A stretch of 63,919 nt of DNA, filler included, from Collodictyon triciliatum (taxonomy: Eukaryota), in assembly GCA_043381765.1 (NCBI GenBank). It is 5 parts of 5 records of this genome, joined end to end, with 100 filler letters (N's around TTAATTAATTAA, not from the genome) between each part and the next. Parts side by side here need not be neighbours in the genome. Positions count along the whole stretch, not along the records: positions 6,793 to 29,286 come from JBHJMP010000240.1; 4 more parts are not named here. One strand, given 5' to 3'. The notes under the pieces are model-generated. The model searched no databases, was not told where the DNA came from, and saw only the letters and a list, made by a program, of their open reading frames with translations. Made by a program: the position numbers and the translations under genes. Shown in pieces: positions 3,800-61,300 of this stretch; position 1 is the first letter of the stretch, and each line of letters begins with the position of its first letter.

Positions 3800-6466
3800 T
3801 TAGACGCGCGGGATTGGCCCCGTTTTCTCCCAAACAAAGGAGAGGATTTGGTTTAAACGGTCCAGCAAAGAAGTGTCTGACGAAGTGACTCGCTGAAGAC
3901 ACAGTACACATATTATCATGATTGTTTTAAATTAATTTCATTAAAATATAAAACGCACACTTATATATGAACACATGATATACACACGGATGCGAAGGTG
4001 TAATTGGCTGCTGAAGAAATACGACGACTGCGCGAGACATACTTTGTTGCGCATGTCGATTTCAATGTCTGCTCCGTCGAAGCAGCCCCGCGCAAACCCG
4101 TCGGGAGTCACTTGCAGGTGGCCAAAGTACTCGGAGAGGATGCGGAGGAGAGGGACGAGGCTTTCGTCTGCCTCGGGCGCGTCTTTCTCCTCGGCGCATT
4201 CGCCCTGGACGTCGATGTGATGGTCGTTGTGATTGTGATTGTGATTGTGATGGTCGTCGTGATTGTGGGGCTCTTTGTGATGCTCGTGGCTGCAGGACGT
4301 TCGTGGGAAATCTGCGTTTCGTAGTGGCCTTTGTTTAATAGTAATAATAAAAAGAGTTGAGGGTGAAATAACTGGATAGATAAAAAGAAGAAGAATAATA
4401 ATAAAAAAAAGAAAGAATTAACGTGATGGGATGAATTCGAGTAACAATGACAATAAGTAATCCCTCGTCTGTGAAAAAGAAAAAAGAAAGAATGAATGCA
4501 GAGGAGGACGGGTTCGTGCGATTCAACAGTCGAGACACTTTTGTTGTGACTGTGTTTTTTATGGCGTGGAAAGAAGGATATCCCGAACGCACATTTGATG
4601 TTGTGTGGATTAGTCTCGATCTGCGTAATCAGCGTAATCAGAGAGTCGGCAAGCATGTCGCTCAGGGGATCCGTGTCCCAGCTCAACGAAACGCCGCCCT
4701 CTGTCTCGCTCACTTGAAGCAGCTCCTCGACCTATGGATTGGATGAATTGGTTTATATGCTCCTTTTTCTTTTTCATTTTTTTTTAATCGTCCATCAGGT
4801 TCATATCTTTTGGGGTGGAGTGGTTTCGTCTCCAGATTAACTGATTTGTTTACCACAAGGATGTTTGGATCGGACTCTCGCGAAACGGGGGAAAACATTT
4901 GTCGCACAAAGTATTCCAGGATATCGAAAGCATGCCGGTAAATGATGCGAACGGTTTGCTTGATGGTAACCACAGATAACTTTGTTTTTTGTTTTTTGTT
5001 TTTTGTTTTTTGAAAATAGAAAATAGAAAATAGAGAATAGAGAATAGAAAATAGAAAATAGAAAATAGAAAATAGAAAATAGAAAATAGAAAAGAAAATA
5101 GAAAAGAAAATAGAAAAGAAAATAGAAAAGAAAATAGAAAAGAAAATAGAAAAGAAAATAGAAAAGAAAATAGAAAAGAAAAAAGANNNNNNNNNNNNNN
5201 NNNNNNNNNNNNNNNNNNNNNNNNNNNNNNNNNNNNNNNNNNNNNNNNNNNNNNNNNNNNNNNNNNNNNNNNNNNNNNNNNNNNNNAAAAAAAAAAAAAA
5301 AGAAAAAAAAAAAGAAAAAGAAAAAGAAAAAGAAAAAGAAAAAGAAAAAGAAAAAGAAAAAGAAAAAGAAAAAGAAAAAGAAAAAAGAAAAAGAAAAAAG
5401 AAAAAGAAAAAAGAAAAAAGAAAAAAGAAAAAAGAAAAAAGAAAAAGAAAAAAGGAAAAGAAAAAAGAAAAATTTAATAGACAGTATAGCATCGATATTC
5501 TCATACCCGCGCGTATTTTTCCTTGTTAAAGTAGAGTGTTACAGTATCAACATTTTTTGGTGTATGGATATTTGGGTTGTATCTCCTTTCCTGCATGCCT
5601 TCAAACTTGCGCGTCAGTCCTTGCTTCAGGTCATCTGTCATCTTTGTGTCTCCATGAACTAAAACCTATAGCACGTATATGAGCCCATTCATGAACAGAA
5701 TCCGTGATAGATACGAAGAGTCCACGCATCTCGAAATGCACTTATTTCTTCTTTTTTCTTTTTTTAATCCTGAAAAAATATTTACTATGTGCGGCGGCCG
5801 AAGAATTGTCACAAATTTACTGGTGTCATCAAAATCGGCGTGAGCAGAGAAGGAGACATCCTCTACTTTCATTCGAAGAGGAACCTCGTGTCCGGAACTG
5901 GTGACAACTTTTGTTTGACGCAGCGTTGTAATTTGCTGTTCCATACGATTGATTTTAATGACATAAATTGCAAATGAAAAGTATGAGGGTGAGAAAGAAA
6001 ATAATATAATACATATATATGAATGAATAAATCTAAGCAGTGAGTTGATGGCATTCATTGGTAAGCACAAACATGTGCAAGGGTTCCTTTCACGCAGTAT
6101 CCAGGAACAATGACTCCGTTTCTTTCATCAGAACACCACTTGTCAAAAAGACGACGAGAAGGCCCATTCTATGATATGGTAATGGCTTCATTTACACTAA
6201 CTGTTTAGGACTGATGTTGGTAGGTGTTGGTTGGTTGAAATGATATTTCGATAATCATGGATAAAATAAAACAACAACCAAATTTTTAGAAATATTCTGA
6301 TGTCAATAAACTGAATTAATAATAGTAAAAAGAAAAGAAAAAGAAAAAGAAGAGAAGATTCACTTGTAGCATGCCTGGACTGGCCATCACAACACAAGGT
6401 TCGCTTTCATCAAGTTCCTCAATTTTGCGCAGGTTGCGAACGTATCGAAATTCGAAAGGGTTTTTT
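3800..6466 (-). CDS. CPSF3: Cleavage and polyadenylation specificity factor 73 kDa endonuclease (beta-CASP and C-terminal part; 5' half lost at scaffold join)
   Basis: Spliced exons give [20 protein letters not shown] / [32 protein letters not shown] / VSFSAHADF / VLVHGD / [14 protein letters not shown], diagnostic CPSF73/Ysh1 motifs. Stop at 3800-3802. Confidence 0.92.
5012..5470. repeat. Purine-rich (AGAAAAT)/(GAAAAA)n tract around an N gap
   Basis: Direct reading. Confidence 0.9.
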
Positions 6467-7013: not shown

Positions 7014-8192
7014 TTATGATGGTTTTCGTGATGGCCTGCGTTCAAACGTGAGGCGGGACTCGTAGAATCTGATCACGAGCTGAGGGATCTTGTGGGAAAG
7101 CACACTTGATTTGTAAAACGTGATGGTTGGCGGGTCTCCCATGCTGGCGTGTGTGTGTGCGAGTGTGAGTGTGAAGCGTAAGGACGGGTGAGAATAAAGG
7201 GATTAGAGGGCTCGAACGAAAGGGCACAGAAGGTGGGTGGAATCAGAGGTCTTGGATGGATGGCGCATACCACTTGACGGCAAGATATACTTGTTCCTTA
7301 AACTTGAAGGCACCAAGCACTTCTACAGGCTCGCCTGGGAAGTCAAATTCGTCCTTGTGTATGAGTTTGTACAGAGTCAAGTCTGGATCGGCCGTCGGCT
7401 TTGGATGTGTGCTGCTTGCCTGCTCCGTGTTCGAATTGGTTTGATCGGCTAGTACAAGAGATGGCGATGATGATTAGGAAGAGTGTGAGTGATTGCGAGG
7501 GAGATACACACAGTAGGTAAAGCGTTTGAAATGTGGGAATGGTGGTTATAACTGGTGGCAGAGTCCGAGCCGAAATCCAATTGCCGCCTAGCTTTGTTGC
7601 GTCGCCTGGGTTCGTTGATGGAGGAGGACGATGCACCTTCTCGCTTGGCCTTGCGAGATGATGAGGATGATGCCTGATCTATCGAGCCACTGCTAAGTCT
7701 CTTGGTTTGTGATGGTGTCTGGTTGCTGGGTTTTGTCTTGGGAGAGCGCTTGGAGGATGCTGTTCTTGTTCTCTTTAAGTAATCCATGATAAGGAGCTCA
7801 CAGCCAATCAAGTTCCTTTCGTCTTCCCATGATGGCTCGTCATAGCCGACCCACTTGAGAAGATACTTCCAGCGACTCTGTAGTGTGTTGAGATCAAACA
7901 AATGTAACCAGACAGAAGAGGAGCAAGGGAAGGAAGAAAGAAAGTTTGGGATAACAAGAAGAGAAAGGAAAAGAAATGAAAAGAAAATCCTAGATGGCGA
8001 AGGTATTTTTTCTTCTCTCTGGGGCAGATCTCTTAGTCTTGTGATGTAAATCAAAAGTGAATGTGTCTTGTGAAGGGCTTTGGGATGCCCGGTGGCATAG
8101 ACTAGGGCGCTCAGCCTTCAGGGGAGGATTCCTACCTTTTCTTTCTTCCGATCAAGGATCGCCTCAACAGAGTAGATTTCTTTGCTCGACAT
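7014..8192 (-). CDS. HP1/Swi6-like chromodomain plus chromoshadow protein (4 exons)
   Basis: MSSKEIYSVEAILDRK|..YLLKWVGYDEPSWEDERNL (chromodomain), basic Ser-rich hinge, PVEVLGAF..YLAVK|..IPQLVIRFYESRLTF (chromoshadow). Stop at 7014-7016. Confidence 0.88.
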
Positions 8193-8959: not shown

Positions 8960-9053
<94 letters not shown>

Positions 9054-9058
9054 TAACA
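8960..9058. repeat. (AAT)n microsatellite
   Basis: Direct reading. Confidence 0.95.
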
Positions 9059-9211: not shown

Positions 9212-12200
9212 TCATTCAGCCTGTAAATGGATAAACTTAATTACAAACGTTGTTACGAACTTGGTTTTATCCCTTTCAAGGACAATACATTTTATACAAC
9301 GAAAGTGTACCCATATAAATATATAGCAATTTATTGCACAGACAACCCTCGAATTAAATCTGGATTGACAAAAGCAGAAGCTTTGATGAACCCCAAAAAA
9401 GACCTGAATAATACAATAGTTTAATTAGTATATATAGTAAGGTTAAAAATACTAGATAATCTCATTCTATTCCTATAATCAATTTATATTTTATTGTTCA
9501 TTTATGTAATATTATAATTAAAATTCAAAGATTACAAACAAGTCCTTGCCTTGGCCCGGACAGAACCCACCCTATAAACCTGCCAACAAACATGCATTTC
9601 AAAAAAGCATACTATCCACACTTGCGGCGATAATCATGTTGTTTGGGGGCGATATATTGACTATCAATCACAACAGCTATACGGCCATCCTTTCGAACTC
9701 GCCGAATTGGCTCTCAGCGTTTTATCTGAAATCACTTATAAAAAAACGATGTGTGTTTGTTTGTCACAAAGCGCACACTTTGAGAGTCCCGGCAGATGCT
9801 CAATTTTACATAAATTGGTTATTTTTTTTTTTTTTTTATAGTTTTTGTATTTATAAAATTGACTAATTGAATGAAGTTTTATTAAAATTGAAAACTCGGT
9901 AGTTATCTAAAGGAAAAAGTAAAACGAAGACTTTCAGATGAAGAAAAGAAAACGTCTTGAGTCTGAGAATCTAAAGTCTGTAGAACCAGACTATCAAAAT
10001 GTGAAAACATCTCTTAAGTCGATGGTAAAGAATCCGGATGACTATTACAAAATCAACGATACGGTTTTATTGTGTCATAATTTGGTTACCGATACTTATC
10101 TGTTTACAAGATGCTACATATTTTTTTCCTTTATTCGATTCAACAAGATGTTACATATTGAAATCACAACTACTCCCAACAATCGATGAATTTTTTTTTT
10201 TTTGTACGCTTTAAAGACAGTCTGAATAGCTTCACAAGATAGACCCGCAAGTTTTTTAAAAAAAAAACAGAAATGAATAAAGACATGATGGCTTTCTATC
10301 TCTATGATTTTCGATTCCTTTTGTCCCAAGAAGAATGCTTTCTGTCGGTTAGATTGTCTCATGCACTACCGTACTTGGCGAAGCAAGTATTAACAGCTTA
10401 TCATAATAACATTAAGGAACATTCTGTAAAGAGGTTAATGCGCTTTATAAACCAGACAGTTCCTAAAGATGAGAATATGACGGAAGCTATTAAAAAGGCA
10501 GAGTTACGAAACTTAAAAAAAGCCATATTCAAGAATCTCGAAATACTGGAACAATATAAATAATGGGCTAAAATACATTTGAATCGTATCATTCCCAGCG
10601 ATATTGTAAATGGTATCGAATATGATATCAGAGCCAATCCAGATGAGTAAATTCCAAGTCTGATTTACGTGAATCGCATTTTTGAGGACATTGAACCAAA
10701 CTGCTTCAATCAATCCCTATAAGAACTAACAATATACCATGTCATATTACTCTAGATACCGCATGTTTGATAGATCTATTAGTATTATCTGGAAAATCAT
10801 TATTAAAGACTAATATATCAGGATGCAAAGATACTCTATGGGATGACTTCTTTGAAATGAAGAGGAGGGTCTTTCATCAAAGAGACTAGAATTTTAAATA
10901 CATGATACAAACAGTCGGCTTGGCGGTGTCATCGTTGTTTGAAAAGAAAGGTATTTCAAATTCAAAATCCAATTATAAACAAAAAACTCAAAGAATATGG
11001 TTATATAGGTGAACTTTCCAAAGAGCAGCTATCTTTATTAGCGACAAAAAATATGTTTGAGTGGACGCAGGCAAGTTTAATTTTGGTTTACATGGTGGAT
11101 GAGGCAGGTAAGAAATTACGTTACACGGCACGCCAAAGAAGACATGATGGCGAACCTCTTAAAATCACAAAATAATCTTGCACGAGAAAGAAAGTAAAGT
11201 ACAATGCTTCAGGGATATGCACAGCAACAGGTTTACAAAGTGCTGTTTCTTTTGTTCCCCTGACTTTTGAAGAGAATCAGCAGTTTGAGACATCAAGAGT
11301 ATCTTAAATCGATTTAGAGACAGAACTGAGTAAACATTATTCATGCACCGTCGATTATGAAAAATTCGAAAATGTGTATCTATGAAATCAAGATACCAGA
11401 TAGAATTATTCAGATTTTATGAACAAGTAACTTTTCGAAAGATGAGATGGAGACAGTATGTTAATACAAAAAGAAGTGAACAGTTGTTTATGGACTGAAT
11501 CGAAAAGACATTTGGCAAGGATGTTATAATGGTGTATGGAGACTGGAGCAGAAAATCTCAGATGAAATGTTTTATGCCATCAATCGGAAGAGGATTACGA
11601 AAAATACTATCCAAACGTTTTGAAACAGTTTGTGTAAATGAATTTAGAACCTCCAAGATGTGCTGCAACTGCGAAAAAGACTGGAACATATGAAGCCGAA
11701 AGGAACTCAAAAAAGGCGTATATAGATGTCTCACATGTGTATAGAATGCAATCACTCAGAAAGCAAACAAAGTGTATTCTTGACAAGGGACTTTAACAGC
11801 GCTAATGATATACTCAGCAAAGTTCTTCCAATCCTTCAAAAAAATTAATTAATCTTCCTCTAAAAAAATAGGCTGTCGGGTCAGTCCTGGCAGCCTTCAC
11901 TACTACACAAACTTTGTGAAAAAAAGTGGCGAGACATTGGATGCTAGCGCACCAAGTTTACCAATCTTTCGATTGGTATATCCCTTCTAATAGGCCAGTG
12001 TATAACAAAAAGAAAAAGAAAAGAAGTAGAGAAGAAAAAAGCCTACTACTCGTGTTAGTTGTAAATAACTATCTACTCAGTGATTTCAGGTGTAACCAAT
12101 ACATTTTGTTTCTTTTAATGGTTTTTCTTTATACATAGATTATCATCCATGTCGACATCTGTCTTAACCTTAACACGTTGTACATGACACAGCCTGCACG

Positions 12201-12731
12201 AGGACTTATTAGAACGGAAGAAAGCAGGCTTGAACAGCAACTATTCAACCATCTTATTCATCCGTTCACACAAAATTGAATATCGCTATGATAAAATATC
12301 AAACAAACATAAAATAACTAGACTCGTACCTTCAAAAGACAAAGACGGCAGGATATATATCAATATCTCTCAATATCGGAAAAGAGAAAAGAAAAGAAAA
12401 GCGAGGACTAAAATGCCGTCGAAATACGGTGCCTGAGTCTGGCCGATAAGACCACCAGACAAATCCAAGGACAGATAACAACGCAGGCTCCACAGGATAG
12501 AATATGCAAGACCTTCTCGACGTGGCATGGCGAGTCAGGCGCAACCCGTCGGCGTGAAATGCGTGTGTGTGCGTGGTCGCCGGGTGCTTGTTTGCTGGTC
12601 TCCGGCGGAATGTGGAGCATCGATCCCTTATGTGGAACAGCGCCCGGTTCACAAGACGCTTTGCCACCCGATACCCAATAGGAAACAAACCAATTAGGAT
12701 AATCCTGAAAAGGGAAAAATTGCTCCTCCAC
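9212..12731 (-). CDS. Putative ~130-aa MATH/TRAF-like protein; 8 small exons spanning the Fanzor element
   Basis: Phase-consistent GT-AG exons 12731-12691, 12512-12428, 12240-12169, 9798-9779, 9710-9683, 9571-9540, 9403-9347, 9272-9212 give MEEQFFPFQDYPNWSCIFYPVEPALLSVL...GGFCPGQGKDLSFLGFIKASAFVNPDLIRGDKTKFVTTFVIKFIHLQAE*. W-x3-YP and F-x2-FI resemble MATH motifs. Exons 4-5 have weak GAG acceptors. Confidence 0.4.
9855..9891 (+). promoter_or_regulatory. Two AAAATTGA motifs (Mimiviridae early-promoter consensus) just upstream of Fanzor
   Basis: AAAATTGA at 9855-9862 and 9884-9891, ~45-85 bp before the first in-frame ATG. The motif is AT-rich and also occurs elsewhere in the window. Confidence 0.35.
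9938..11848 (+). pseudogene. Fanzor1 (eukaryotic TnpB-family RNA-guided endonuclease), decayed by stops and frameshifts
   Basis: Across frameshifts: VKTSLKSMVKN..INDTVLLCHNLVTDTYLFTRCY; LPYLAKQVLTAYHNNIKEHSVKRLMRFIN; RTNNIPCHITLDT; YMIQTVGLAVSSLF; RuvC-I VDAGK (D 11064); FRKMRWRQYVNTKRSE; YGDWS..MPSIGRGLRKILSKRF; RuvC-II VNEFRTSKMCCNC (E 11640); CIEC; RuvC-III TRDFNSA (D 11789). Confidence 0.9.
11860..12000 (+). ncRNA. Candidate Fanzor omega-RNA (fRNA) scaffold
   Basis: Four tandem hairpins directly after the Fanzor stop: 11870-11896, 11898-11928, 11937-11955 and 11959-11978 (perfect TACCAATC-tttc-GATTGGTA). Confidence 0.6.
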
Positions 12732-13635
12732 AAATGGAATATAGCAACATCATATCCATATCTGGAGCAATACATTCAGCCAAAAAAGGAACAGAAAACC
12801 CCAAGAACCGTCCCCTCGCACCCAGGCCAAGACCAAAAATCATCATAAAGGAACAATGTCTCACAGTATATCGAATTTCTGCCACTGCACCCAAAAAAAA
12901 CCGCCGGAGCAGCCGACAAAGCAAAGCGCACCGCAGCAAACGAGCGAAGCATCGCGCAGTGATTAGCCACCCTTTGATTAATGAGCCGAGCAAAGATACA
13001 AAGTATCGCCCGAAATTAATCACGAGGTGATGAAGAGAAAGAGAGAAAGAGAGAGAGAAAGAGAGAAAGAGAGAAAGAGAGAAAGAGAGAAAGAGAGAAA
13101 GAGAGNNNNNNNNNNNNNNNNNNNNNNNNNNNNNNNNNNNNNNNNNNNNNNNNNNNNNNNNNNNNNNNNNNNNNNNNNNNNNNNNNNNNNNNNNNNNNNN
13201 NNNNNNNNNNNNNNNNNNNNNNNNNNNNNNNNNNNNNNNNNNNNNNNNNNNNNNNNNNNNNNNNNNNNNNNNNNNNNNNNNNNNNNNNNNNNNNNNNNNN
13301 NNNNNNNNNNNNNNNNNNNNNNNNNNNNNNNNNNNNNNNNNNNNNNNNNNNNNNNNNNNNNNNNNNNNNNNNNNNNNNNNNNNNNNNAAATAATATTAAT
13401 TTATAAACGAGGACAATTCATAAAAGGTTTATTGCAGGGGTAACGCTCTTTCCTCTCATATCTTCAAATAACCCTCTGCTTTTTATAATAAAAATAATAC
13501 GATATACACTTGAAGTTCACAAGCTGCGTTTCTTTAAAGGATCTTGGTGTGTTTTTTTCTTTTATGTTTATAAGGGCGAGTAACTACCATGAAGAAAGAA
13601 ATAAAGAAAAGGAGAAAGAACTCATAGTCACTCAC

Positions 13636-29568: not shown

Positions 29569-36434
<6,866 letters not shown>

Positions 36435-46704: not shown

Positions 46705-47721
46705 ATATGTAATACTTGGATTGCACCCCTATTCTTGATACATTGGTATATGAACTTGAATATCCCAATCAATTTTTTTTTATGAAACGATATATAAATA
46801 CATGCATCATGGTCTCAAAACAGAAAATCTAATCCTTTGAAATTGGAAAATATAGAGATGAAAAAGAGAAAGGTTTAGATGTCCCGCAAAGCATAAACGT
46901 TGCCACACACACTTTGAAAAAGGGCTCGAACTATATTACCAAGCTTTTGTTAATGTAGGTTTATAGCTATATCTACTATGCAATAATTTGCAACTTAACG
47001 CACATAAAACATGTGCAATATAAATATATGTATGTAAAATATAACTGAATAAAAATATGTAGATGTAATTTTTTGTACTATCTAAGTATCACGCCATTTT
47101 CTACCCTTTCATCTCGTTTCAGATTGTTCAAGGTGTGCTTGTTGACCGACGTTTCAAAAGACAGAAGCCATCTCTCCCGCGCGGTTGATTGGAAAACGCT
47201 TTCGACCATCGCGTCGCGCCCTTTGATGATTTTTGCTTTCCGATGCCTGTTGGATTCGACTCGTTTATGAGATTCTTGGATTACACTTTGGTATCCGTGA
47301 GTGACTTATTTTACCTGGTATACCGTCTATGCCCACATTTTAAGTGTGAAGGAAACTCTTGCAGGATTTACCTTAGTATATATTTCATTTCGAATATTGA
47401 GAAAGGCCACTCCTGCTTTGGCCCATCCAGTCTTATTTTCAAGTATATCAGTCCTTGGTTCGAGCAAAAGAATCATTTGAGAGAGTTTCAAAAAAGGCCA
47501 ATCTACTTCCTGAGTTGAGTGCTGAAATCCTTCTGGCCCGAAAAGCAAGTGAATTTTAAAAATTAGCACATTACTTTCTTTTTCTCTTCCTGTTGTAATG
47601 GTGCTCCGTTTACGCCTCACGCGGTTGCGTTCACCACACTTTATCAGTTTGTCCCCAAAAGTAATAAAAAAAAAATTAATGATTTATAAATGCGCGTATG
47701 AAAAGATAAGGATTTTAATCA

Positions 47722-48451
47722 CAACCACGAGCTGGAGAAAAGTACGAACCCGCAAGTCCTCCCAAATCACCGCTCTCTAATGCATAATATCACCAATAGG
47801 GAGCTATGGATAGGCACACGCGCGGCAAAACCTGCCAAAGTCTCCCAACAATACACGCTTTGCAGCAACGGTGATGAATCCATTGAGCACACATTTGTGC
47901 AATGTCCCTTCGCTCAAAACATGCGCGAAACAGTCGGTGAGATTCTTCGACTGACACTCAAGACGGCTGCAGCTGTTTGTCCAATCCAGGCGATATTTGG
48001 GCCTCTGCAACAGCTGCGTCCAGATGCAAAAAAATTCTGGGCATTGACGCGAGGCCATTTGCTATGGACTATGTGGATAGCGCGCATATACTCACGCAAA
48101 GCAAGACTCAACAACCAGCCACCCATTCCTGATAATAGGCTGAATGACATCATACAAATCTATTTTCTCAACACCTTCCTTCGCCATCTGCGCGTTCTCT
48201 ACTACTCAGACCTCGTGAGAAGAGACATGTGGAAAGAGGCTGGGAAAGAGATTAAACCTCGCCTTGTCTCTCTCATGCAAGCACAAGACCCAGGCTGCAG
48301 GCCAAACCGCAGATGCAATTCCTGATTACCGACTACTTCTCCGCCACCCGGCCACCAAGTAGCGCCCATGCAAACGATGGCTGGCGAACCAAAGCCAACA
48401 TCCTCACCATCCTGCACAAAATTGAAAGGAAGAATAAAAAAAAAATAAAAA
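47722..48451 (+). mobile_element. 5'-truncated non-LTR retrotransposon (L1/Tx1-like) 3' fragment: zf-RVT region, 3' UTR, A-tail
   Basis: Intronless ORF 47780-48325 with LC..GDESIEHTFVQCPFA and LLWTMWIAR (zf-RVT / ORF2 C-terminus). AATAAA-polyA tail. 16-bp TSD ATAAGGATTTTAATCA (47706-47721) / ATAAGGAGCTTAATCA (48452-48467). Confidence 0.88.
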
Positions 48452-51700: not shown

Positions 51701-54700
51701 AAACATAACTAATATGTTAGACTCACCCCTATAGCCATGGCACTGCAAACACCGAGTTGAATGCTGGTCATATTTGAGCAATTTTTGAAATCGTCAAAGA
51801 AACCAGAATTCCCTTGTTGTATACAATAATCAGATAGCGCCTTGACCTTTTGCAGTCGATTTCTCCGCAGCCAAATTACTTGCAGAGGGAAAATCAATTT
51901 GACCGCATAATAAGCCTAATATCATATTGAGGAAAGATGATGTCTATATTACAAGGGTCGTGTCTGATGTACCTCAAAAAATTTTGTATTGTGATTGAAG
52001 AATGAGAATGAAAATAATACAATGTTTTCATATTTTGACCAAGAAATGAGCTTGTTGCATTCTGCCCTGAACAACTCAAATTTGTCCATATTGAACAATG
52101 AATCATAATCTTTCACGGGAAAATCACTGGTAAAATGTATTCATATGATTTTTTCTGTGAATCGAACATCAATAAACAACGAAATACAATACAATACAAT
52201 ACAATACAATACAATACAATACAATACAATACAATACAATACAATACAATACAATACAATACAATACAATACAATACAATACAAAAAAAAACACAATTAT
52301 TTGCTACATTTATAAGCAACAGGCCATAAATACTTCATGCATACCTAGGTATGACCCATGGGTTTGAAGGAGTATTCGATCCAACAAAATACACTCTGCA
52401 GAAATGATGCTGTATATCCGAAGCGTATATCCCTCTTGGGAGGTGGGATGCGAATGGGTCAATTACGTCGTTATGAACGCTGAAGTGAGATATTCATAAT
52501 CAGGATTTTGGCTATGAAGGGCAAAGGCTACGTGGTGGTTAAATAATACAAAAGTCTCAATAATTTTACAATTTATTAAAGACTCAAAAGAATACATGTT
52601 TGGATTTGATATAAAAAAGAAATACGTAGGTGATAATTAAAGAGAAAAAGAGAAAATAAAATAAATGCTAGTGTCATAAAATTCTAAAGTCGACCTTTGC
52701 TTGGGTTGGATTGAGTGTCCTTCACTATCCAAAAGTTGCATTTTAAATAAAGTGTGGTTTTGTAGTCGCCTCTTATGCTACATGTTTACGATAAATGAAT
52801 GGAATTAAAACAAATGATTATGTGATGAACAAATAGTTGAGCTAAATCGATATAAGAGGACAAACAATCATGTAGTAAGCTCCCAACAGGGCAAGAATTA
52901 AAAAGCAAGAGCCGATGGCAAAGAAGATCGGTCCTCCGAGTAGATTCCATGTATGAATTAGTGGTCCAACTGCAATAACATTTTCAAATCGCATCATAAC
53001 CCACTTCATAGCCCGTATCTTTAGATTCTCAAATGTGATTCCTTATGTAATACCTCCCAGCTCTCATATTTTATTTTATCCTTCTTATATTTATTTCCCT
53101 TGAAACGTACAGACACATGATTATTTACATAATTGTTTAAATGAAACCAACCGCATTCTGATGTAACATATCCAGGGAGACATTCAAAGGGGCAATTTGC
53201 TGTTGTCCAGCCTTCTTTTGTATATTCTGCATTTTCGGGTGCGTTGAGACAAGCACTGCAAGGTTTTCCTATCCGGTCGCTGAATGTACCGGTTTCGCAT
53301 GGGGCGCACGATGACCCAAACCTACCCATGGGACACGGGGATGAGTCCAAGAGGCCTGAACCGCCATCATCACCATCATCTGCTCCACGGCCTCCCAGGA
53401 TGTAATACTGCCCTTTGAAGGAGATGTCGGCATCGGAGCTTTGATCCAGAAAGTTTACATAGATTAAACCACCGCCGCCGCCGCCTCCGCCTTCAATTCC
53501 ATCACCACCATCTGCAGATACCAATCCACCACCCGAAAATCGTCGTGCTGACAAGTATATGGCCCCGCCAGCGCCTCCGCCTCCCCCGTATTCATTCTCT
53601 CTCCTGCCCATGTAGCTTTTGGGTGCATTTTCTTCTGACTCCCGTGATATTCCATCGCGCCTCTTGGATCGATTTACGGAGCCATCTGCTGAGTCTCCAT
53701 CTGCGAGGATAACCCCGTCGATGACCAATTGGTCCAGACACTCGAGCCATACCACTCCCCCGCCATCACCGCCTCCAGAGTTGGAACCTCCGCCTCCACT
53801 TCCACCGTAAATAGGGGGGATTCCGGAGTCGTATTCAATGCCTCCAGCTGCAACCTCATCACCAAACCGGCCTCGTCCTCCTGGCCCGCGATGTCCCCCT
53901 CCTCCTCCTGGAACGTTGGGGATGGTCTCTCCTTTCCCTACCCCAGTTCCAGAGCCACATCCGAGACCTATGTTGAAAAAAAGTGAGAAGAATTATAAGA
54001 AACAAAACAAAACAAAACAAAACAAAACAAAACAAAACAAAACAAAACAAAACAAAACAAAACAAAACAAAACAAAACAAAACAAAACAAAACANNNNNN
54101 NNNNNNNNNNNNNNNNNNNNNNNNNNNNNNNNNNNNNNNNNNNNNNNNNNNNNNNNNNNNNNNNNNNNNNNNNNNNNNNNNNNNNNNNNNNNNNAACAAA
54201 ACAAAACAAAACAAAACAAAACAAAACAAAACAAAACAAAACAAAACAAAACAAAACAAAACAAAACAAAACAAAACAAAACAAAACAAAACAAAACACA
54301 AGAGAATATCAGAAAAGAAAGAAAAAGAAAAATGGAATACAGCTCGCGCATATTGATGATCCAAGATAGAATTTCAAGTTTAAGATTGCATTGCAATTGT
54401 GAAAAAAAGAAAAAGAAAAACAAAGGGAAATATAAACATACCAACGGACGATATAACACCTGTAACTATGATGGTTTTTCCAATAAAATGTACTTTTCCG
54501 CTTTGGATATAACCCAGAGAACGAATAATCAAGGTTTCTGTGATATTCGCAAAAACAGCGACTTTATCCTCCTTGTCGCAATACCGTGATGTGGCAGATA
54601 TAATTCCTGTCACATCCATGGAAGCTGCCTCTATATGTAGCGAGCTGGTGCGTATGACAGAAAAAGGTCCAAAAGTAACCCGTTCGGCAGACGTAAAGTT

Positions 54701-57700
54701 GCATAAATTAGATACTTGGATAGTCCCCTATGTAAATTATGAAGAAAAAGTGTTACATATCTGAACGAACTTTAAAATCCACTTTCATAGGTGTTATTTC
54801 AGGGTTGGTGGATAAATATTTTAAAATAAGATACATATGATCATAAAACCAAAGATCAAGAAAAGAGATAAGAAAGAAAAGAAATAGAAAAGAAAAAGGA
54901 AAATAAAATAACGAGGTTTTAATAAACCTAGACATTTAAAATATCACTTATTTTAAAATAAAAGACGAAAAATCATAAATAAAAAAATACACAAAGAAAT
55001 TGATCACATGCAAACCTCAATCTGCATGGTTTCCATGGACGTGAGTAAACTATCAGCAATGGATATGTAGCTGTTTTCAAATACGTCCAATATTGATCCT
55101 TTGTGCACGGTTGGTAACACATAAACAGAACCGGATGCAATTAAAGAGCTTCCCGTATAAAATAGAAGGGATTTCGTCTTGATTCTAAAAATACCTTTAT
55201 TTGTATACAGAGCCCCATTTGTATAAACTGTTATAGTTTCACAAACCGAAAGTAATGAGCCAAGTGAGCGAATTTTTCCATTTGCGAAAATGATGAGTTT
55301 TGATATGATACATGGGTCGGATAAATGCATATCTGTAAAAAAGACAGAGTCGTGGCTGTTGAAAACCGCAACTATACTCCCGGTTAATGAATGAATTGTT
55401 CCACCAGCCCCGATAGCCCCACATGTACCTGCTCCACCGCTGGCAATGATGGTTCCTGCGCTTTTTTCGGACAGGGTTGGGAAAGTGGATGGAAGCCGCG
55501 ACATTGAGATACGACCACCACTTCCCCCGCCACCGGGAACTTGGAAATTATCAGACGCCCTCGAACTCCCACCATTGGCAGAGATCTGGTAAGTGGTAGA
55601 GTTGACTATATCGATGAAGCGCATGCAGATAGATCCACCAGACCCACCTCCTGCGCCATATGGAATATCTATGCTGTCTCCTCCATTGGCCTCAATCAAG
55701 CTTGCCAACCCCATGGATATAAATCGTGATTCCAAATTAATTACACCGCCACCTCTTCCAATCTCGTGTTCATCAAACCTCGAAATTGATTGACAAGAAC
55801 GAACTCCAGGGTTTCCAGGAAAATCGGGGTTTGTAATACTACCAAATGCTGCGGGGATGGAGTATGTCGATTTACAGCTTGAACCACTTCCCGCATGCGA
55901 CCCACCATATGCCAAGTCATCACACACCGGATATTCACTCAAAGGTCCCAAATTGGATGAGGATATGATAGATTCAGTCCCGATAGTGATGTTTTGGTTT
56001 GCTTTCATTCGTATAATTGCTCCAATGACTGAGACTTGCTGGAAGGATATACCACCTATACTCGTCACTGTAAGATTTCCATATCCTGTGTTGATAAGAT
56101 TGTTGGTGTCTCTTATGCCTTTTGATGTTGCTTTTGGTAATGTGGGTCCACGAATGACAATAGAAGACAGATTTGAGGAATCATGTATGATAAGAGAACT
56201 GGATTGATTTCCGTCTGTTCGAATATTGCCTTCGATCAGAAAAGGCAAGTTGGTGTATACCATGTTGCTAGTGACTTCTAAAGGTTGTCGGACCAGGGAA
56301 ATAGTGTTTCCGAATAAGAAAGCTGTTGGCTTGATGCTAATGGAACCAAGTGCCGATGTTGACAGGTACATCAGATTGCTTGATGTTATTGACCCTTCGA
56401 TCAAAATGGAAGATTTGGCTGTGAGTCTGACATCTGATAAAGTGCTGGACCAACGTAAAAATTTACGGTTATCGCCTCCCATCCTAGCACCTGATTTTAC
56501 CACAAGTCTATCGCACGTGATATGCAGTACTTCCACTTCGAACGGACCGTCTGCATTGAAATCAACTTGTGGTGCATTCAGAGTCAGAGTTGCCCTTGGC
56601 CCAGGTAACAACACTATAGTTAAACCGGTCACCGAAATCGAACTGGTGGAAGATATGTCTAAACTTGATGCAGTGTCAGACACGGGTGATAGATAAAGAT
56701 AACCCTCCAAAGATACATGAGATACCAGCACATTTGGAAAGGGTGTGTCTGCATATAGTCCGAGTAAGAGGCTAGATATCAAAAGAGTTGAAGTAGAACC
56801 ACCTTTTGAGTACACAGTCCCAGCCCCGCCACCAAACATGCCACTACTTTCAGTCCCTCCACGAGCACTAATAACCACTGTGGAGTGAGTGACCAACTGC
56901 GTCAAGCCTATTAACGATATTCGGCCTCCACTTCCTCCTCCACTTCCTCCTCCACTTCCTCCTGTTTTGTTGTTGTCAGAACTGAATCCGCCATTACCGC
57001 CATTACCGCCATTGGCCGATAAAGCTGCATTTGTACGAAGGAAGATACTGTTCCCAGTCATGTATATTGTGCCTCCACTACCAGCTCCCCATGTTGACCG
57101 CTCTCCTACAATACCCAATGGAATATATATTTAATCCTATCGACATATCTGATATGAGAAAGGTAATGTTACATATATTTGAAGCGCGTGAATAAGCACC
57201 TTCACGAAACCCATTTGACCCGTCTGCATGTATGATGCCTTCTATTACAATATCTCCTTTCGATTGAATTGAGACAACACCTCCACCACGTCCATATTGA
57301 TCTGGTTGGAAGCCTCGTCCTGCCGAACCGGCCATTGAAGGATGCACACTGTCGTCGTAAGGCATCCCTCCTCTGTGGCTGATACCAGAACCCTGATCCA
57401 CCTGCAGTCCTCCTCCATAACCACCATGACCACCTCCACACCCGAGACATTCTGGATCCACGTGCGATAGATCTGATGATGAATCACTAACATCCAAGCG
57501 AGATCCTGACAATAGCTCAAAGTTTCGGGCTGAGATGGCGATTGAACTAATGCCACCACCAAGTAAGGCTCCGTTGGAAATGCGAATTAGTCCATCGAGA
57601 AAGTCTAGTTGCAAAGAACAACCCCCTTTAGGACAAGTGAATTGGGCGCGGTCCAGCACAAGGCTTCCGTTTCCTCTTAAAATAAGTGCTGTATTTTGAT

Positions 57701-57802
57701 CGAGTGTATATGAGCTTCGGACGACACACGTCGAGGCTGGGTCTCCCAAATCTCCTTCGTCACAAACAAAAGCATGGAACTTTGCTGATGTGCCCAAAAC
57801 TT
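48798..57802 (-). CDS. Giant glycine-rich membrane protein (GGGSGGxI repeats, Cys-rich ephrin-receptor-like module, multi-TM C-terminus)
   Basis: Repeated GGGHGG.GG, GGGSGGSI, GGGGGGLI units; CPMGRFGSSCAPCETGTF..CPFECLPGY; TM LLGGPIFFAI; VYFVGSNTPSNPW; GDGGYHSPYFI. Architecture matches the uncharacterised plant/protist family of Arabidopsis At5g11700-type proteins. First exon lost at join. Confidence 0.8.
52182..52282. repeat. (AATAC)n microsatellite
   Basis: Direct reading. Confidence 0.95.
54000..54297. repeat. (AAAAC)n microsatellite spanning an N gap
   Basis: Direct reading. Confidence 0.95.
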
Positions 57803-58006
57803 CTATGTATGTAGATAAAGACAAAGAGGCAAAGTGACTCTGATTAGAATGTGAAGTTTGTAGTTTTCCTTGGTTTTTTTGTCTTTTTTAGTGCCTTTTT
57901 ATGATCTTTTTTATATGGTCTTTTTTTATATGGTCTTTTTTTATATGGTCTTTTTTTATATGGTCTTTTTTTATATGGTCTTTTTTTATATGGTCTTTTT
58001 TTATAT

Positions 58007-58373: not shown

Positions 58374-61300
58374 GATGCACGTTCATCGTCGATACTGGAG
58401 ACCGCGTTTACTACCTATTGGCAAACTCTCGAGATGAAATGTGGAAGTGGGTTGAAGGCCTCGAAAAGCATCGAAAAGTGGCTCTTCAGAATTGGGAGAC
58501 AGAGTCCGCTGCAGCAAAAACAAGCCCTCCTGGCAGTCTTGGGATGCTTCAAACGCAAGTCTCTAGTGCAAGTCTCACGAGAAGCAAAAACGAAGAGGAA
58601 ATGCGCGAGGCTGTTTTCGAAGATGGTGTGATGAAGGTTTTCCTCCTCTAACTCTATCACCACGTGAATCGTTCTTTTTTTTTCTTTTCCCCCTTTGGAT
58701 AATTATTCTTAATGTCTGAATGTACTTTTTTTATCTTTATTGTATCGTATCATCATTTACTTTTATGACGAAAAGGGGTATTTGACCAAGAGAGGACCAT
58801 CGAGCTTGACTGGCTTCAAACAGCGCTGGTTCGAGGTTTCCGAGGAGAAGATTTGTTATTATCGTGTGAAAGGAGATTCCGAACCGATTGCAGTCATCCC
58901 GATCGAATGTGTTAATTATGTGACTCCGTCAAATAACATTTCCGGTCTTTCAAAGAAGCACATCGGATCTGCGTTCTTGATTGATACAGAATCGCGCATT
59001 TTTTACTTGGTTGCCTCTACGAAGGAAGACATGTGGAAGTGGGTGGACACCATCACAAAGTTTAGGAAAAAGTCCACAGAATCACCTGATTCCAGCAGTG
59101 ATTTAGTTGCTTTGAATGTTTTCATCAAAAAAGCATCTTACCTCTGCTATGAGAAGTTTATGAATGTAAATTTAATCTTAAGTTTCCTTTTCTTTTTTCC
59201 TTATCTTTTTTTTCTCTTCCTTTTCTCTTCCTTTTCCTTTCTTTTTCCTTTTTTCTTTTTCCTTTTTTCTTTTTCCTCTTTTCTTTTTTCTTTTTTCTTT
59301 TTCCTTTTCCCTTTTTCCATTTTCCTTTTCTTTTTCCTTATCTTGTTCTTTTCTTTTTCTCCTTTTTTCCTTTTTTTCCTTTCTCCTTTTTTCCTTTTTT
59401 TCCTTTCTCCTTTTTCCTCTTTCCTTTTTCTTTTTTCTTTTTTCTTTTTTCTTTTTTCTTTTTCCTTTTCCCTTTTTTCCTGACCCATCTCCCTTTTCCC
59501 TTTTCTTTTTTCTTTTTTCTTTTTCCTTTTTCCATTTTCCTTTTCTTTTTCCTTATCTTGTTCTTTTCTTTTTCTCCTTTTTTCCTTTTTTTCCTTTCTC
59601 CTTTTTCCTCTTTCCTCTTTCCTTTTTCTTTTTTCTTTTTTCTTTTTTCTTTTTCTTTTTTCTTTTTCTTTTTTCTTTTTCTTTTTCTTTTTCTTTTTCT
59701 TTTTCTTTTTCTTTTNNNNNNNNNNNNNNNNNNNNNNNNNNNNNNNNNNNNNNNNNNNNNNNNNNNNNNNNNNNNNNNNNNNNNNNNNNNNNNNNNNNNN
59801 NNNNNNNNNNNNNNNTTTTTCTTTTTCTTTTTTCTTTTTCTTTTTTCTTTTTCTTTTTCTTTTTCTTTTTCTTTTTCTTTTTCTTTTTCTTTTTCTTTTT
59901 CTTTTTCTTTTTCTTTTTTCCTTTTCGTCACACCAACATTTCAATCATCTAGATTGTAGATGGGGATGACTTCTCCTTGATTGCTGCACTTTCCGAAATC
60001 GCTCACGACAAAATGCTGATATCCACATGTTTTTCAAGATTCAAGTGCTTAAAAGGCGAAAGATTTTCTCTAATGAAATGGGCAGCGTTGCATATAATAT
60101 CCTCATATGGTACTTCCCAATATTATTGAAACCCTCGTTTTTTCATTCCATTCCTCTCCATCCCTCGTCTCCTTTCATTTTATCGTGGTTTATTCCACTT
60201 TCTCTCGACAATATCGGTGAGTGCTCGTGTCCATCATAATTCGAACTTTTCTTTTCTTTGTTGTTGTCAGTTGCTGATGATTTTGGATTCATTTTGTTCC
60301 CTCAAAATACCTGACAGGTTCTGTTCAGTCATTTAAAAAGTGGCAGCCCAACACCCAGCTTGTTCCCGTCTCCGTTGTTTCAAACTATCTTGTGGCTTAT
60401 GACCACGAATTCTTGGACGCACTTTGTTGGGTTATCGATCCGCAAATGGTATTTTTTCTTTTGTATATATATATATTCGTTGAAACATTCTAAAAGCCAT
60501 CGATATGGAGTTTCTGTTCTGTTTTCGGCCGCCACTTTAATGCATCCTTTGGTGCAATCAGAACAATAGGATTATACCCATGAATATATAGTAAATTAAA
60601 AACCCTTTGGCATATTTCTAGGATAAACTAAGAACGGAAAAATCCTCCTTCGAAGTTGTCCGTTTCATGGTTGAGACATTATCGTCAAACTGGCACGGTG
60701 TCTCGAGGTGACAATAGAAAACTGAAAAAGAATAATAAAAATAATTGTGTAATGTAACATAAACACTGCCACTTTTAATATTCTTAATTTGAAAATTTTG
60801 AATCGATGAGGCTTTTCCTATTTCCTCGAAGTAGTTCAGCGAATAGAATTAAGTTATCTTGTTCCTTTAATTGCAGGCCTATACGCTATTTCTTTTTCCA
60901 GGCGATGATGGGTTTCCATCTCAAGTTTGTCACGAACGAAAACTTTGCTGTGTCGGGTGCGGTGACACTCATATTACTCGCTCTCCTATCTCCATCAGTG
61001 CCAACTATCAGCCCGTCCGTATTGGAATTGGAAGGTATTCAAGAACAGCGTCCAATCATTTTTACGATTGGCTTTTGAGACAATATTTACCATATGATAG
61101 AATTAATTGATCTAATGATTGTAATGAACTCTCTTGACATGGTTTTATTAAGCCGAGGGGAAAGCTGCTATAATTCTCTCAAATAAAAATACAGCATTAA
61201 ATCAACATATTTCATTTATAGCGAGATCAAAGACGGATATACCTCGTTCAAGATTCATAAATATGACCTTTGAGCAGATTTCGTCGATGCTTTGTAAATA

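What the first reader, a model, noticed from the sequence alone, without database searches (positions are those of the whole stretch)
9938..11848. Decayed Fanzor1 RNA-guided endonuclease hidden as ORF fragments
Seen: a ~1.9-kb stretch almost free of introns in an intron-dense genome. Stitching frames gives ~630 codons with N-terminal VKTSLKS..INDTVLLCHNLVTDTYLF and AYHNNIKEH, then RuvC-I VDAGK (D 11064), a basic helix FRKMRWRQY, YGDWS, RuvC-II NEFRTSK (E 11640), CxxC..CxxC, and RuvC-III RDFNSA (D 11789). Stops at 10561, 10648, 11496 and several frameshifts break it. Established: this motif order defines TnpB/Fanzor (OMEGA) nucleases, and the long N-terminal lobe fits Fanzor1. Inference: this copy is dead, but all three catalytic codons survive, so the host may carry intact or reconstructable copies of an undescribed family.
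Basis: partly seen in the sequence, partly recalled or inferred. Interest (0 to 1): 0.88.

Follow-up and report, generated by a model that had tools for sequence, protein, structure and literature searches.

The report
Dead Fanzor1 nuclease gene copy
This stretch is a badly decayed, non-functional copy of a Fanzor1 RNA-guided DNA-cutting gene carried by a multi-copy mobile element, an ordinary relic of a well-known family.

Summary
Window 9938-11907 (+) is an intronless copy of a Fanzor1 gene, colinear with an intact 648-aa public protein (P0003): 390 of 636 aligned codons are identical.

Four alignment settings give 8-9 in-frame stops and 5-14 frameshifts.

The three acidic codons (D 11064, E 11640, D 11789) fall in the family's invariant or near-invariant columns. 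A family profile aligns those columns with SpuFz1 D383/E541/D606.

Fanzor1 membership is firm:
- The profile hits SpuFz1 at 9e-109, PpFz1 at 2e-105 and GtFz1 at 7e-81.
- An AlphaFold model of P0003 matches only Fanzor1 structures well, TM 0.64-0.80.

"Undescribed family" is not supported. There are 3147 cluster representatives and 326 intact relatives in giant-virus contigs.

Contigs from four public runs show the element is a multi-copy repeat. Some copies lack this copy's lesions. Whether the host holds an intact copy stays open, because no host genome is held.

No inverted terminal repeats, transposase or recognisable ωRNA were found here.

The parts
9938..11839 (+). Decayed, intronless Fanzor1 coding region, colinear with residues 1-620 of the intact relative P0003. 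Weaker similarity continues to about 11907.
   Evidence: tblastn. Frameshift-aware alignments: 8-9 stops, 5-14 frameshifts, 390/636 codons identical.
9938..9955 (+). Start codon and basic MKKRKR motif, a likely nuclear localisation signal (inference).
   Evidence: Sequence; identical start in P0003 and P0163. N-terminal NLSs are reported for Fanzors in PMC10530073 (passages read).
10393..10419 (+). TAYHNNIKE motif of the REC/WED lobe.
   Evidence: The fragment 10243-10560 that holds it matches GtFz1 at E 7.5e-4 and PpFz1 at 0.024, with this motif aligned in both. T140 and N145 are >=90% conserved in the family alignment A1.
11061..11075 (+). RuvC-I motif VDAGK. D is GAC at 11064-11066. The family-invariant proline is replaced by alanine at 11067.
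   Evidence: The column aligns with SpuFz1 D383.
11433..11459 (+). Basic helix FRKMRWRQY.
   Evidence: Aligned to PpFz1 FRKMKFSTK. R487 is >=90% conserved.
11535..11549 (+). YGDWS strand of the RuvC core.
   Evidence: Aligned to PpFz1 LGNWS and SpuFz1 MGDWS. G521 is invariant.
11637..11657 (+). RuvC-II motif NEFRTSK. E is GAA at 11640-11642.
   Evidence: The column aligns with SpuFz1 E541.
11661..11749 (+). Zinc-finger (TNB) cysteines: CCNC 11661-11672 and CIEC 11738-11749, now in different frames and separated by several frameshifts.
   Evidence: Sequence. Pfam PF07282 hit below its cutoff (E 0.018, 15.6 bits against 26.3).
11786..11803 (+). RuvC-III motif RDFNSA. D is GAC at 11789-11791.
   Evidence: The column aligns with SpuFz1 D606 and GtFz1 N658.
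11850..12005 (+). 3' tail inside the repeat unit. This is where an ωRNA scaffold would lie, but none was recognised. It has hairpins at about 11871-11897 and 11960-11980.
   Evidence: Repeat coverage ends within 11962-12082. RNA fold z = -2.34, with 5 of 200 shuffles folding as well. The covariance model from the viral clade gives no hit here on the + strand.
9300..9937 (+). Upstream non-coding part of the same repeat unit. The left end is not determined because the stretch I laid began at 9300.
   Evidence: Contigs of X1, X2 and X4 at >=80% likeness cover 9319-9938 (tables 2 and 8).

Best explanation
Window 9938-11907 (+) is a pseudogene of a Fanzor1 ωRNA-guided RuvC endonuclease. It sits inside one decayed copy of a multi-copy mobile element that spans at least 9300 to about 12040-12080.

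The ancestral protein was about 640 aa. It had an N-terminal basic motif, a REC/WED lobe, a split RuvC domain with a D-E-D triad, and a zinc-finger TNB domain. By analogy with SpuFz1, PpFz1 and GtFz1, it would have bound an RNA made from the element's 3' end and cut DNA matching the guide next to a short motif, helping the element persist or spread.

This copy can no longer make that protein and is best read as inert DNA. The catalytic codons survive simply because most conserved codons have not yet been hit.

Shown: homology, colinearity, the lesions, the catalytic mapping and the multi-copy status. Inferred: the ancestral biochemical activity, the NLS, and the role in mobility.
For: (1) Window fragments match solved Fanzor1 chains.
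- 11361-11693 (TGA read as X): PpFz1 8.6e-11, SpuFz1 5.1e-7, GtFz1 2.7e-5.
- 11499-11690: PpFz1 4.3e-8.
- 10243-10560: GtFz1 7.5e-4.

(2) The intact 648-aa relative P0003 is colinear with the window: tblastn E 5e-143, 390/636 codons identical.

(3) P0003 and its family are Fanzor1.
- P0003 alone against the PDB: GtFz1 2.1e-28, PpFz1 2.7e-24, SpuFz1 3.7e-23.
- The 67-sequence profile A1: 9.1e-109, 2.1e-105 and 6.9e-81 for SpuFz1, PpFz1 and GtFz1, full length.
- AlphaFold model pLDDT 88, pTM 0.87.
- Foldseek ranks 1-7 are all Fanzor1 chains, with TM by query length 0.64-0.75 and by target length 0.60-0.80. The next hits (Cas12, TnpB, Fanzor2) have TM 0.17-0.40.

(4) Catalytic mapping.
- D364 and E555 are invariant and D604 is >=90% conserved in A1.
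- These columns align with chain residues 777/935/1000 of 8gkh, which is SpuFz1 D383/E541/D606 after the 394-residue tag offset.
- PMC10432273 names those residues as the Mg-coordinating residues (passages read).
- The window codons at those columns are GAC 11064, GAA 11640 and GAC 11789.

(5) The copy is dead.
- 8-9 stops of all three kinds and 5-14 frameshifts across four alignments.
- The longest open segment is 106 codons.
- The invariant P365 is replaced by A, and 3 of 20 near-invariant positions are changed.

(6) The element is multi-copy.
- 543, 517, 938 and 90 contigs of runs X1-X4 lay on 9300-12082 at >=80% likeness, with 1-22 contigs per listed site.
- Almost nothing lies beyond 12083.

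(7) Some lesions are private to this copy or shared by only some copies.
- At 10650, all contigs laid there in X1 and X3 and most in X2 read C, which turns the stop TAA into TAC (Tyr, as in P0003); X4 has no cover there.
- At 7 of my 14 frameshift sites, some contigs carry a compensating indel within 7 bases: 10692, 11081, 11160, 11190, 11364, 11679, 11736.
Against: - Three of the six window fragments sent to the PDB search found no Fanzor: 9923-10189, 10906-11172 and 11726-11845.
- Pfam gave only sub-threshold hits on 2 of 9 fragments.
- No terminal inverted repeats, no transposase remnant and no second copy or fragment in the window. The 'transposon' status therefore rests on copy number in other runs, not on element anatomy here.
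- Several frameshift sites lie in homopolymer runs and could in part be assembly errors. The stops cannot be explained that way.
- The exact number of frameshifts depends on alignment settings (5 to 14).
- Runs X1-X4 are other samples under coded names. Their contigs may mix organisms, so copy number in the window's own genome is not measured.
Confidence: 0.93

Rival explanations
1. The gene is functional. On this reading, the apparent breaks are introns, a variant genetic code, programmed frameshifts or sequencing errors.
For: About half of the 14 frameshift sites sit in or beside runs of A or T. The window is a gapped draft assembly with many N runs.
Against: - The stops are of all three kinds and align with at least five different residues (G, E, Y, L, K, plus R and Q in the first alignment), so no single reassignment opens the frame.
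- A 707-codon frame elsewhere in the window is open under the standard code.
- The alignment to P0003 is colinear, with no intron-sized insertions: 13 inserted codons in all.
- Family-invariant P365 and three near-invariant residues are replaced.
- Other copies read a sense codon where this one has a stop, at 10648-10650.
Confidence: 0.02
2. The stretch is a remnant of an integrated giant virus (an endogenous viral element), not a copy of a host-resident transposon.
For: - The nearest labelled relatives are giant-virus encoded. ESM Atlas clusters are 92-100% viral, mostly Nucleocytoviricota.
- 326 relatives lie in IMG/VR contigs, many of them giant-virus MAGs, at 38-47% identity to P0003.
- A preprint reports Fanzor1 elements shared between an endogenous giant virus and its algal host (10.1101/2024.09.03.611062, passages read).
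Against: - The flanks hold ordinary eukaryotic gene pieces (Chromo, ABC_tran, PH_BEACH, PH, zf-RVT) and microsatellites, with no viral hallmark seen. I scanned only 8 ORFs.
- The repeat unit is only about 2.8 kb and its similarity to other copies stops near 12080.
- Identity to viral proteins is only about 43%: 251/586 to P0005, the 634-aa representative, the same length as the ORF of viral loci L003/L005.
- The viral clade's 3' RNA is absent here.
- A viral origin of the element family in the distant past is not excluded and would be compatible with the best explanation.
Confidence: 0.04
3. The protein is dead, but the locus still supplies a guide RNA (ωRNA) in trans to intact Fanzor1 copies elsewhere in the genome.
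For: - The 3' tail 11760-12005 folds somewhat better than shuffles, z = -2.34.
- The tail lies inside the conserved repeat unit.
- Fanzor-less 'ghost' elements that keep only the ends are described in S. punctatus (PMC10432273, passage read).
Against: - 5 of 200 shuffles fold as well.
- The covariance model of the related viral clade's 3' RNA finds nothing here on the + strand.
- No DNA of close relatives was available to test conservation or covariation.
Confidence: 0.03

Closest known systems
Fanzor1 nucleases with solved structures: SpuFz1 (8gkh, 9ceu-9cez), PpFz1 (9cf0-9cf3), GtFz1 (9cer-9cet)
   Same: - Same domain order and fold. The P0003 model has TM 0.64-0.80 to them.
- The family profile aligns over the full length at E 9e-109 to 7e-81.
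- The same D-E-D triad positions and the same DPGK, DEF/YxTS and NRDxN motifs.
- Similar size, about 640 aa.
   Different: - Only 18-21% identity in the structural alignment.
- It lacks the PpFz1 RuvC insertion: the profile match to PpFz1 splits in two around it.
- The window copy itself is a pseudogene, and no ωRNA, TAM or element ends are defined for it.
Giant-virus-encoded Fanzor1 loci (IMG/VR contigs L002-L081; Pfam DUF8286 clusters labelled 'transposase')
   Same: - They are the closest labelled relatives, at 38-47% identity to P0003 over the full length.
- Same length, 555-640 aa.
- Same conserved motifs (A2).
   Different: - The viral genes are intact single ORFs in all 80 loci.
- 75 of the 80 carry a strongly conserved structured 3' RNA motif, which the window lacks.
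- In 4 of the 8 neighbouring ORFs I scanned, a DDE_3/HTH transposase lies nearby; in L002, L003 and L004 it is divergently oriented directly upstream of the Fanzor gene, and in L012 it lies further upstream. No such gene or remnant is in the window.
Fanzor2 and prokaryotic TnpB / Cas12f
   Same: They share the RuvC-TNB core and the weak PF07282 signal. Foldseek probability is 1.0.
   Different: - Much poorer fit: ApmFz2 TM 0.20/0.27 and ISDra2 TnpB 0.20/0.31.
- No sequence hit in the PDB searches, apart from LaTranC at 3e-4 on the TNB only.
- They lack the long N-terminal REC lobe that the window copy encodes.
Fanzor fragments and 'ghost' elements described in host genomes (S. punctatus ghosts; the C. 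reinhardtii chromosome 17 fragment)
   Same: They are degraded or partial Fanzor elements left in a eukaryotic genome as part of a multi-copy family (PMC10432273; 10.1101/2024.09.03.611062; passages read).
   Different: Those were defined with element ends and intact sister copies in the same genome. Here neither could be examined, because no genome is held.

Membership tests
Fanzor1 | RuvC catalytic triad (D, E, D/N) at the positions of SpuFz1 D383, E541, D606 | tested here: met
   The window codons GAC 11064, GAA 11640 and GAC 11789 align to P0003 D364/E555/D604. These columns are invariant or >=90% conserved in A1. They align with 8gkh chain residues 777/935/1000, which is D383/E541/D606 after the tag offset. 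The residues are named in PMC10432273 and PMC11423790.
Fanzor1 | Full-length Fanzor1 architecture: long N-terminal REC/WED lobe, split RuvC and TNB, fold like solved Fanzor1 | tested here: met
   Shown for the intact relative P0003: Foldseek top 7 hits are all Fanzor1, TM 0.64-0.80, and the profile gives a full-length match. It carries over to the window copy through colinearity over residues 1-620.
Fanzor1 | Zinc-finger (TNB) cysteine pairs between RuvC-II and RuvC-III | tested here: met
   CCNC at 11661-11672 and CIEC at 11738-11749. Pfam PF07282 scores only below its cutoff (E 0.018).
Fanzor1 | An open reading frame able to give the protein (functional membership) | tested here: not met
   8-9 in-frame stops and 5-14 frameshifts. 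The longest open piece is 106 codons. It is therefore a pseudogene of the family, not a working member.
Fanzor1 | Structured ωRNA encoded at the 3' end, running to the element's right end | tested here: inconclusive
   RNA fold z = -2.34. The covariance model R1 from the viral clade gives no hit on the + strand at 11700-12100; the best hit anywhere in the window is E 0.057. No DNA of close relatives was available for a covariation test.
Fanzor1 | Residence in a mobile element: multi-copy, with ends and/or an associated transposase | tested here: inconclusive
   Multi-copy: met in runs X1-X4. Terminal inverted repeats: none found. Transposase: none found. The left end was not reached.
Fanzor1 | RNA-guided, TAM-dependent DNA cleavage | not testable with these tools
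   This needs biochemistry on an intact relative.
Fanzor2 / TnpB | Compact protein of about 400-480 aa without the long REC lobe, with close similarity to IS607/IS605 TnpB | tested here: not met
   The ancestral length is about 640 aa, with a 350-aa N-terminal lobe. ApmFz2 and TnpB structures fit poorly, TM 0.20-0.31. There are no sequence hits to them in the PDB searches.

The most novel reading that the evidence does not exclude
The window's organism and its relatives (coded organisms A and B) may carry a high-copy, possibly still active Fanzor1 element family. It would form its own subclade: at most about 61% protein identity to any public protein found here, about 43% to giant-virus Fanzor1, and about 20% to the characterised enzymes. 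It would have its own unrecognised ωRNA and a history of exchange with giant viruses. Intact copies could then give a new natural RNA-guided nuclease and a case of virus-host sharing of such elements.
Probability: 0.3. Interest if true: 0.4.

Novelty: new member of a known kind. Interest (0 to 1): 0.22.

Why it matters
On its own it matters little. Decayed Fanzor copies are an expected by-product of a family that reaches up to 122 copies per genome (PMC10530073, passage read).

Its use is as a marker. It shows that this host lineage has been colonised by a Fanzor1 element whose nearest labelled relatives are giant-virus genes. Intact sister copies, if present, would be natural candidates for a compact eukaryotic genome-editing nuclease.

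It also shows that surviving catalytic codons in a pseudogene should not be read as a sign of retained function.

Tried and rejected
- **Host genome search for paralogues.** Not possible; no genome is held.
- **Pfam on 9 ORF fragments.** Only two sub-threshold hits: PF07282 at E 0.018 and DUF5958 at 0.0012, the latter taken as chance.
- **PDB searches with three fragments.** 9923-10189, 10906-11172 and 11726-11845 gave no Fanzor hit.
- **Rfam and tRNA scans of the window.** Nothing found.
- **Terminal inverted repeats and internal repeats.** Only low-complexity or chance-level matches, E >= 0.21.
- **Close DNA relatives.** The metagenome-contig scan gave one distant locus at 21% identity. The viral-contig scan with the single protein gave none. 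So no dN/dS, no 3' conservation test and no element ends by comparison.
- **Cluster look-up.** No organism names. The labels were 'hypothetical protein' and one '6-pyruvoyl-tetrahydropterin synthase', which I take as a mislabel.
- **Earlier findings of the scan.** None for this genome or sequence.
- **Expression.** No RNA holder is listed. X1 and X2 are only guessed to be RNA, so nothing is concluded about transcription.
- **Habitat.** X3-X6 are freshwater or aquatic metagenomes holding small shares. The contigs I laid are mostly 80-95% alike, so they are relatives of the element and I draw no habitat conclusion.
- **Transposase remnant.** tblastn with four viral DDE_3 transposases against the window gave a best E of 0.02 in a low-complexity stretch near 63.2 kb, and nothing near the element.
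- **ωRNA by homology.**
  - blastn of the window's 3' tail against the viral 3' tails matched only A-rich low-complexity sequence.
  - Covariance model R1 gave 34 hits at E <= 10, best 0.057. None lies on the + strand at the element's 3' end; one minus-strand hit at 11975-12128 has E 9.5.
- **Alignment A1.** Too diverse for the locus scan, so I used the 10-sequence A2 instead.
- **Fanzor1 subfamily (1a-1d).** Not attempted, because no labelled reference sequences were available. The supplements of the cited papers, which may hold them, were not seen.
Full report
**What is there**

The window is a gapped eukaryotic nuclear scaffold. It is AT-rich, has many microsatellites and N runs, and holds exon-like ORFs with ABC_tran, Chromo, PH, PH_BEACH and zf-RVT domains.

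Between 9938 and about 11907 on the + strand lie short ORFs in three frames.

**Is it a Fanzor?**

Window fragments alone already say so.
- The 64-aa piece 11499-11690 hits Parasitella parasitica Fanzor1 (9cf0) at E 4.3e-8.
- The 111-aa read-through 11361-11693 (TGA as X) hits PpFz1 at 8.6e-11, SpuFz1 at 5.1e-7 and GtFz1 at 2.7e-5.
- The N-terminal piece 10243-10560 hits GtFz1 at 7.5e-4 through the TAYxNNIxxHF helix.
- Three other pieces found nothing.
- Pfam gave only sub-threshold signals.

A word-indexed search found an intact 648-aa relative, P0003, in public metagenome data; it is 73% identical to the 111-aa piece.
- tblastn of P0003 on the window gives three linked segments, E 5e-143, plus a fourth. 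Together they cover residues 1-620. No second copy appears in the 63.9 kb.

**State of the copy**

I aligned P0003 to 9900-12000 with my own frameshift-aware dynamic programme.
- 636 codons align and 390 are identical (61%).
- There are 9 in-frame stops and 14 frameshifts.
- There are 13 inserted codons and 6 deleted residues. No insertion is intron-sized.

With a harsher frameshift penalty, or with P0005 as reference, the counts are 8-9 stops and 5-10 frameshifts.
- Six stops are common to all four alignments: 10223 TGA, 10561 TAA, 10648 TAA, 10887 TAG, 11305 TAA, 11496 TGA.
- All three stop codons occur and they align to at least five different residues, so a variant genetic code cannot rescue the frame.
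- About half the frameshift sites lie in or beside A/T runs and might in part be assembly errors. The stops cannot be.

The copy is a pseudogene.

**Family membership and the catalytic residues**

- An exhaustive HMMER search with P0003 found 3147 cluster representatives at E<=1e-3 and 537 at E<=1e-30. The nearest full-length one is 48% identical.
- I aligned P0003 with 66 full-length hits chosen from the 150 best listed (A1). D364, P365 and E555 are invariant, and D604 is conserved in >=90%.
- The A1 profile matches SpuFz1 at 9.1e-109, PpFz1 at 2.1e-105 and GtFz1 at 6.9e-81 over essentially the full length.
- In that alignment the three columns fall on 8gkh chain residues 777, 935 and 1000. 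With the 394-residue tag offset (checked by D-P-N = 383-385), these are D383, E541 and D606.
- The SpuFz1 paper names these as the Mg-coordinating residues (PMC10432273, passages read).
- The third column is N in GtFz1, as published (PMC11423790, passages read).
- The window codons at these columns are GAC 11064, GAA 11640 and GAC 11789.
- An AlphaFold2 model of P0003 with A1 has pLDDT 88 and pTM 0.87.
- Foldseek ranks seven Fanzor1 chains first, with TM by query length 0.64-0.75 and by target length 0.60-0.80. It then drops to Cas12, TnpB and Fanzor2 at TM 0.17-0.40.

So the gene was a Fanzor1, not a Fanzor2 or TnpB.

**Why the surviving triad means little**

Of 27 family-conserved positions, the window copy keeps 23.
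- 6 of 7 invariant positions are kept; P365 is replaced by A, right beside the catalytic D.
- 17 of 20 near-invariant positions are kept.

Three surviving catalytic codons are what chance predicts.

**The element**

No genome is held for the window, so I used public runs.
- Six runs hold small shares of 9500-12500.
- I laid four of them at >=80% likeness on 9300-12900. They gave 543, 517, 938 and 90 contigs, mostly 80-95% alike.
- The contigs cover 9300 to about 12082, with 1-22 contigs per listed variable site.
- Past 12083 only one near-identical X1 contig continues (11885-12553, 16 differences), plus a trace of depth (2-3) in X3 to about 12445.

So the Fanzor pseudogene lies in a repeat unit of at least about 2.8 kb. 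Its right end is within 11962-12082 and its left end is at or before 9300.

Other copies differ at this copy's lesions.
- All contigs laid at 10650 in X1 and X3, and most in X2, read C, which turns TAA into TAC (Tyr, as in P0003); X4 has no cover there.
- At 7 of the 14 frameshift sites, some contigs carry a compensating indel.

This suggests less-decayed copies exist in related organisms, but no intact copy was seen.

Within the window there are no terminal inverted repeats, no other fragment and no transposase remnant.

**Relatives with context**

- ESM Atlas places P0003 next to clusters labelled 'transposase' or hypothetical, carrying PF26935 (DUF8286), 92-100% viral and mostly Nucleocytoviricota.
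- A scan of IMG/VR with the 10-sequence alignment A2 found 326 relatives. All of the best 80 have intact ORFs of 555-640 aa at 38-47% identity to P0003.
- In L002, L003 and L004 a divergent DDE_3/HTH transposase sits directly upstream of the Fanzor gene; L012 has one further upstream. That is 4 of the 8 neighbouring ORFs I scanned.
- This arrangement matches the Fanzor plus Tc1/mariner-type elements described in an endogenous giant virus of Chlamydomonas, where virus-host sharing of Fanzor1 fragments is also reported (10.1101/2024.09.03.611062, passages read).

The wider literature already describes thousands of Fanzors, four Fanzor1 clades, multi-copy genomes and N-terminal NLSs (PMC10530073, passages read). 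The family is therefore not undescribed.

**ωRNA**

The viral loci share a striking 3' non-coding element.
- A roughly 30-base motif ends 46-141 bases after the stop codon in 76 of 81 loci, and similarity ceases right after it.
- RNAalifold predicts 18 pairs, and 10 of them show compensatory changes.
- This looks like the scaffold end of that clade's ωRNA and the element's right end.

A covariance model built from it (R1) finds nothing at the window element's 3' end.
The window tail folds only modestly better than shuffles, z = -2.34.
The window's ωRNA, if it ever resembled the viral one, is no longer recognisable. With no DNA of close relatives, I could not define its own.

**Verdict**

The Fanzor1 pseudogene reading is supported. 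The 'undescribed family' claim is not. The hope of intact host copies remains open.

This is a new, dead member of a known kind and is of low interest in itself.

Noticed in passing
L001-L081, 46-141 bases downstream of each Fanzor1 stop codon (for example L012:7750-7911 and L003:7789-7950): 76 of 81 fetched loci (75 of the 80 giant-virus loci plus the metagenome locus L001, whose protein is only 21% identical) share a nearly invariant 3' motif of about 30 bases, GGCGTTT(T/G)AAATG..AAAGGTGTAAA. All similarity stops right after it. Upstream of it are two helices with compensatory changes (10 of 18 predicted pairs). It is probably the ωRNA scaffold end and right end of this Fanzor1 clade. I did not check whether it is already described.
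   Followed up: partly
L002:4641-5678(-), L003:4648-5676(-), L004:4679-5578(-), L012:3029-4042(-): DDE_3 plus HTH (IS630/Tc1-mariner-like) transposase genes lie near the viral Fanzor1 genes. In the three closest loci they are divergently oriented about 320-440 bases upstream. The other 4 of the 8 neighbouring ORFs scanned were unrelated (RING/MORN, ribonucleotide reductase, DUF4379, none).
   Followed up: partly
window 53021-57887 (-): Three long open frames (322, 707 and 268 codons) encode a glycine-rich, repeat-like protein with recurring GGGSGG / GGxGG motifs. None has a Pfam match at E<=0.01. It may be a lineage-specific large secreted or surface protein.
   Followed up: no
window 47702-48325 (+): An ORF with a zf-RVT domain (E 5.7e-6, just under the Pfam cutoff). 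It is probably the tail of a non-LTR retrotransposon reverse transcriptase, so another mobile-element relic in the window.
   Followed up: no
window 7449-8117 (-): An ORF with a chromodomain-like stretch (Chromo E 1.5e-4, below cutoff), about 1.8 kb upstream of the Fanzor copy. Whether it is a host gene or part of a retroelement was not examined.
   Followed up: no
window 9718-9901 and 10101-10144: Several contigs of X1 and X2 skip or replace these stretches: joints 9717>9902, 9722>9909, 9746>9848, 10101>10144 and 10080>10145. So this copy carries extra or divergent sequence there, including the poly-T tract at 9814-9838, compared with other copies.
   Followed up: no
window-wide, for example 8960-9056, 5100-5500, 13100-13400, 31540-32140, 59200-59950: There are very many microsatellites and low-complexity tracts, each broken by an N run. 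Assembly gaps sit in simple repeats, so local indel errors in homopolymers are plausible.
   Followed up: no
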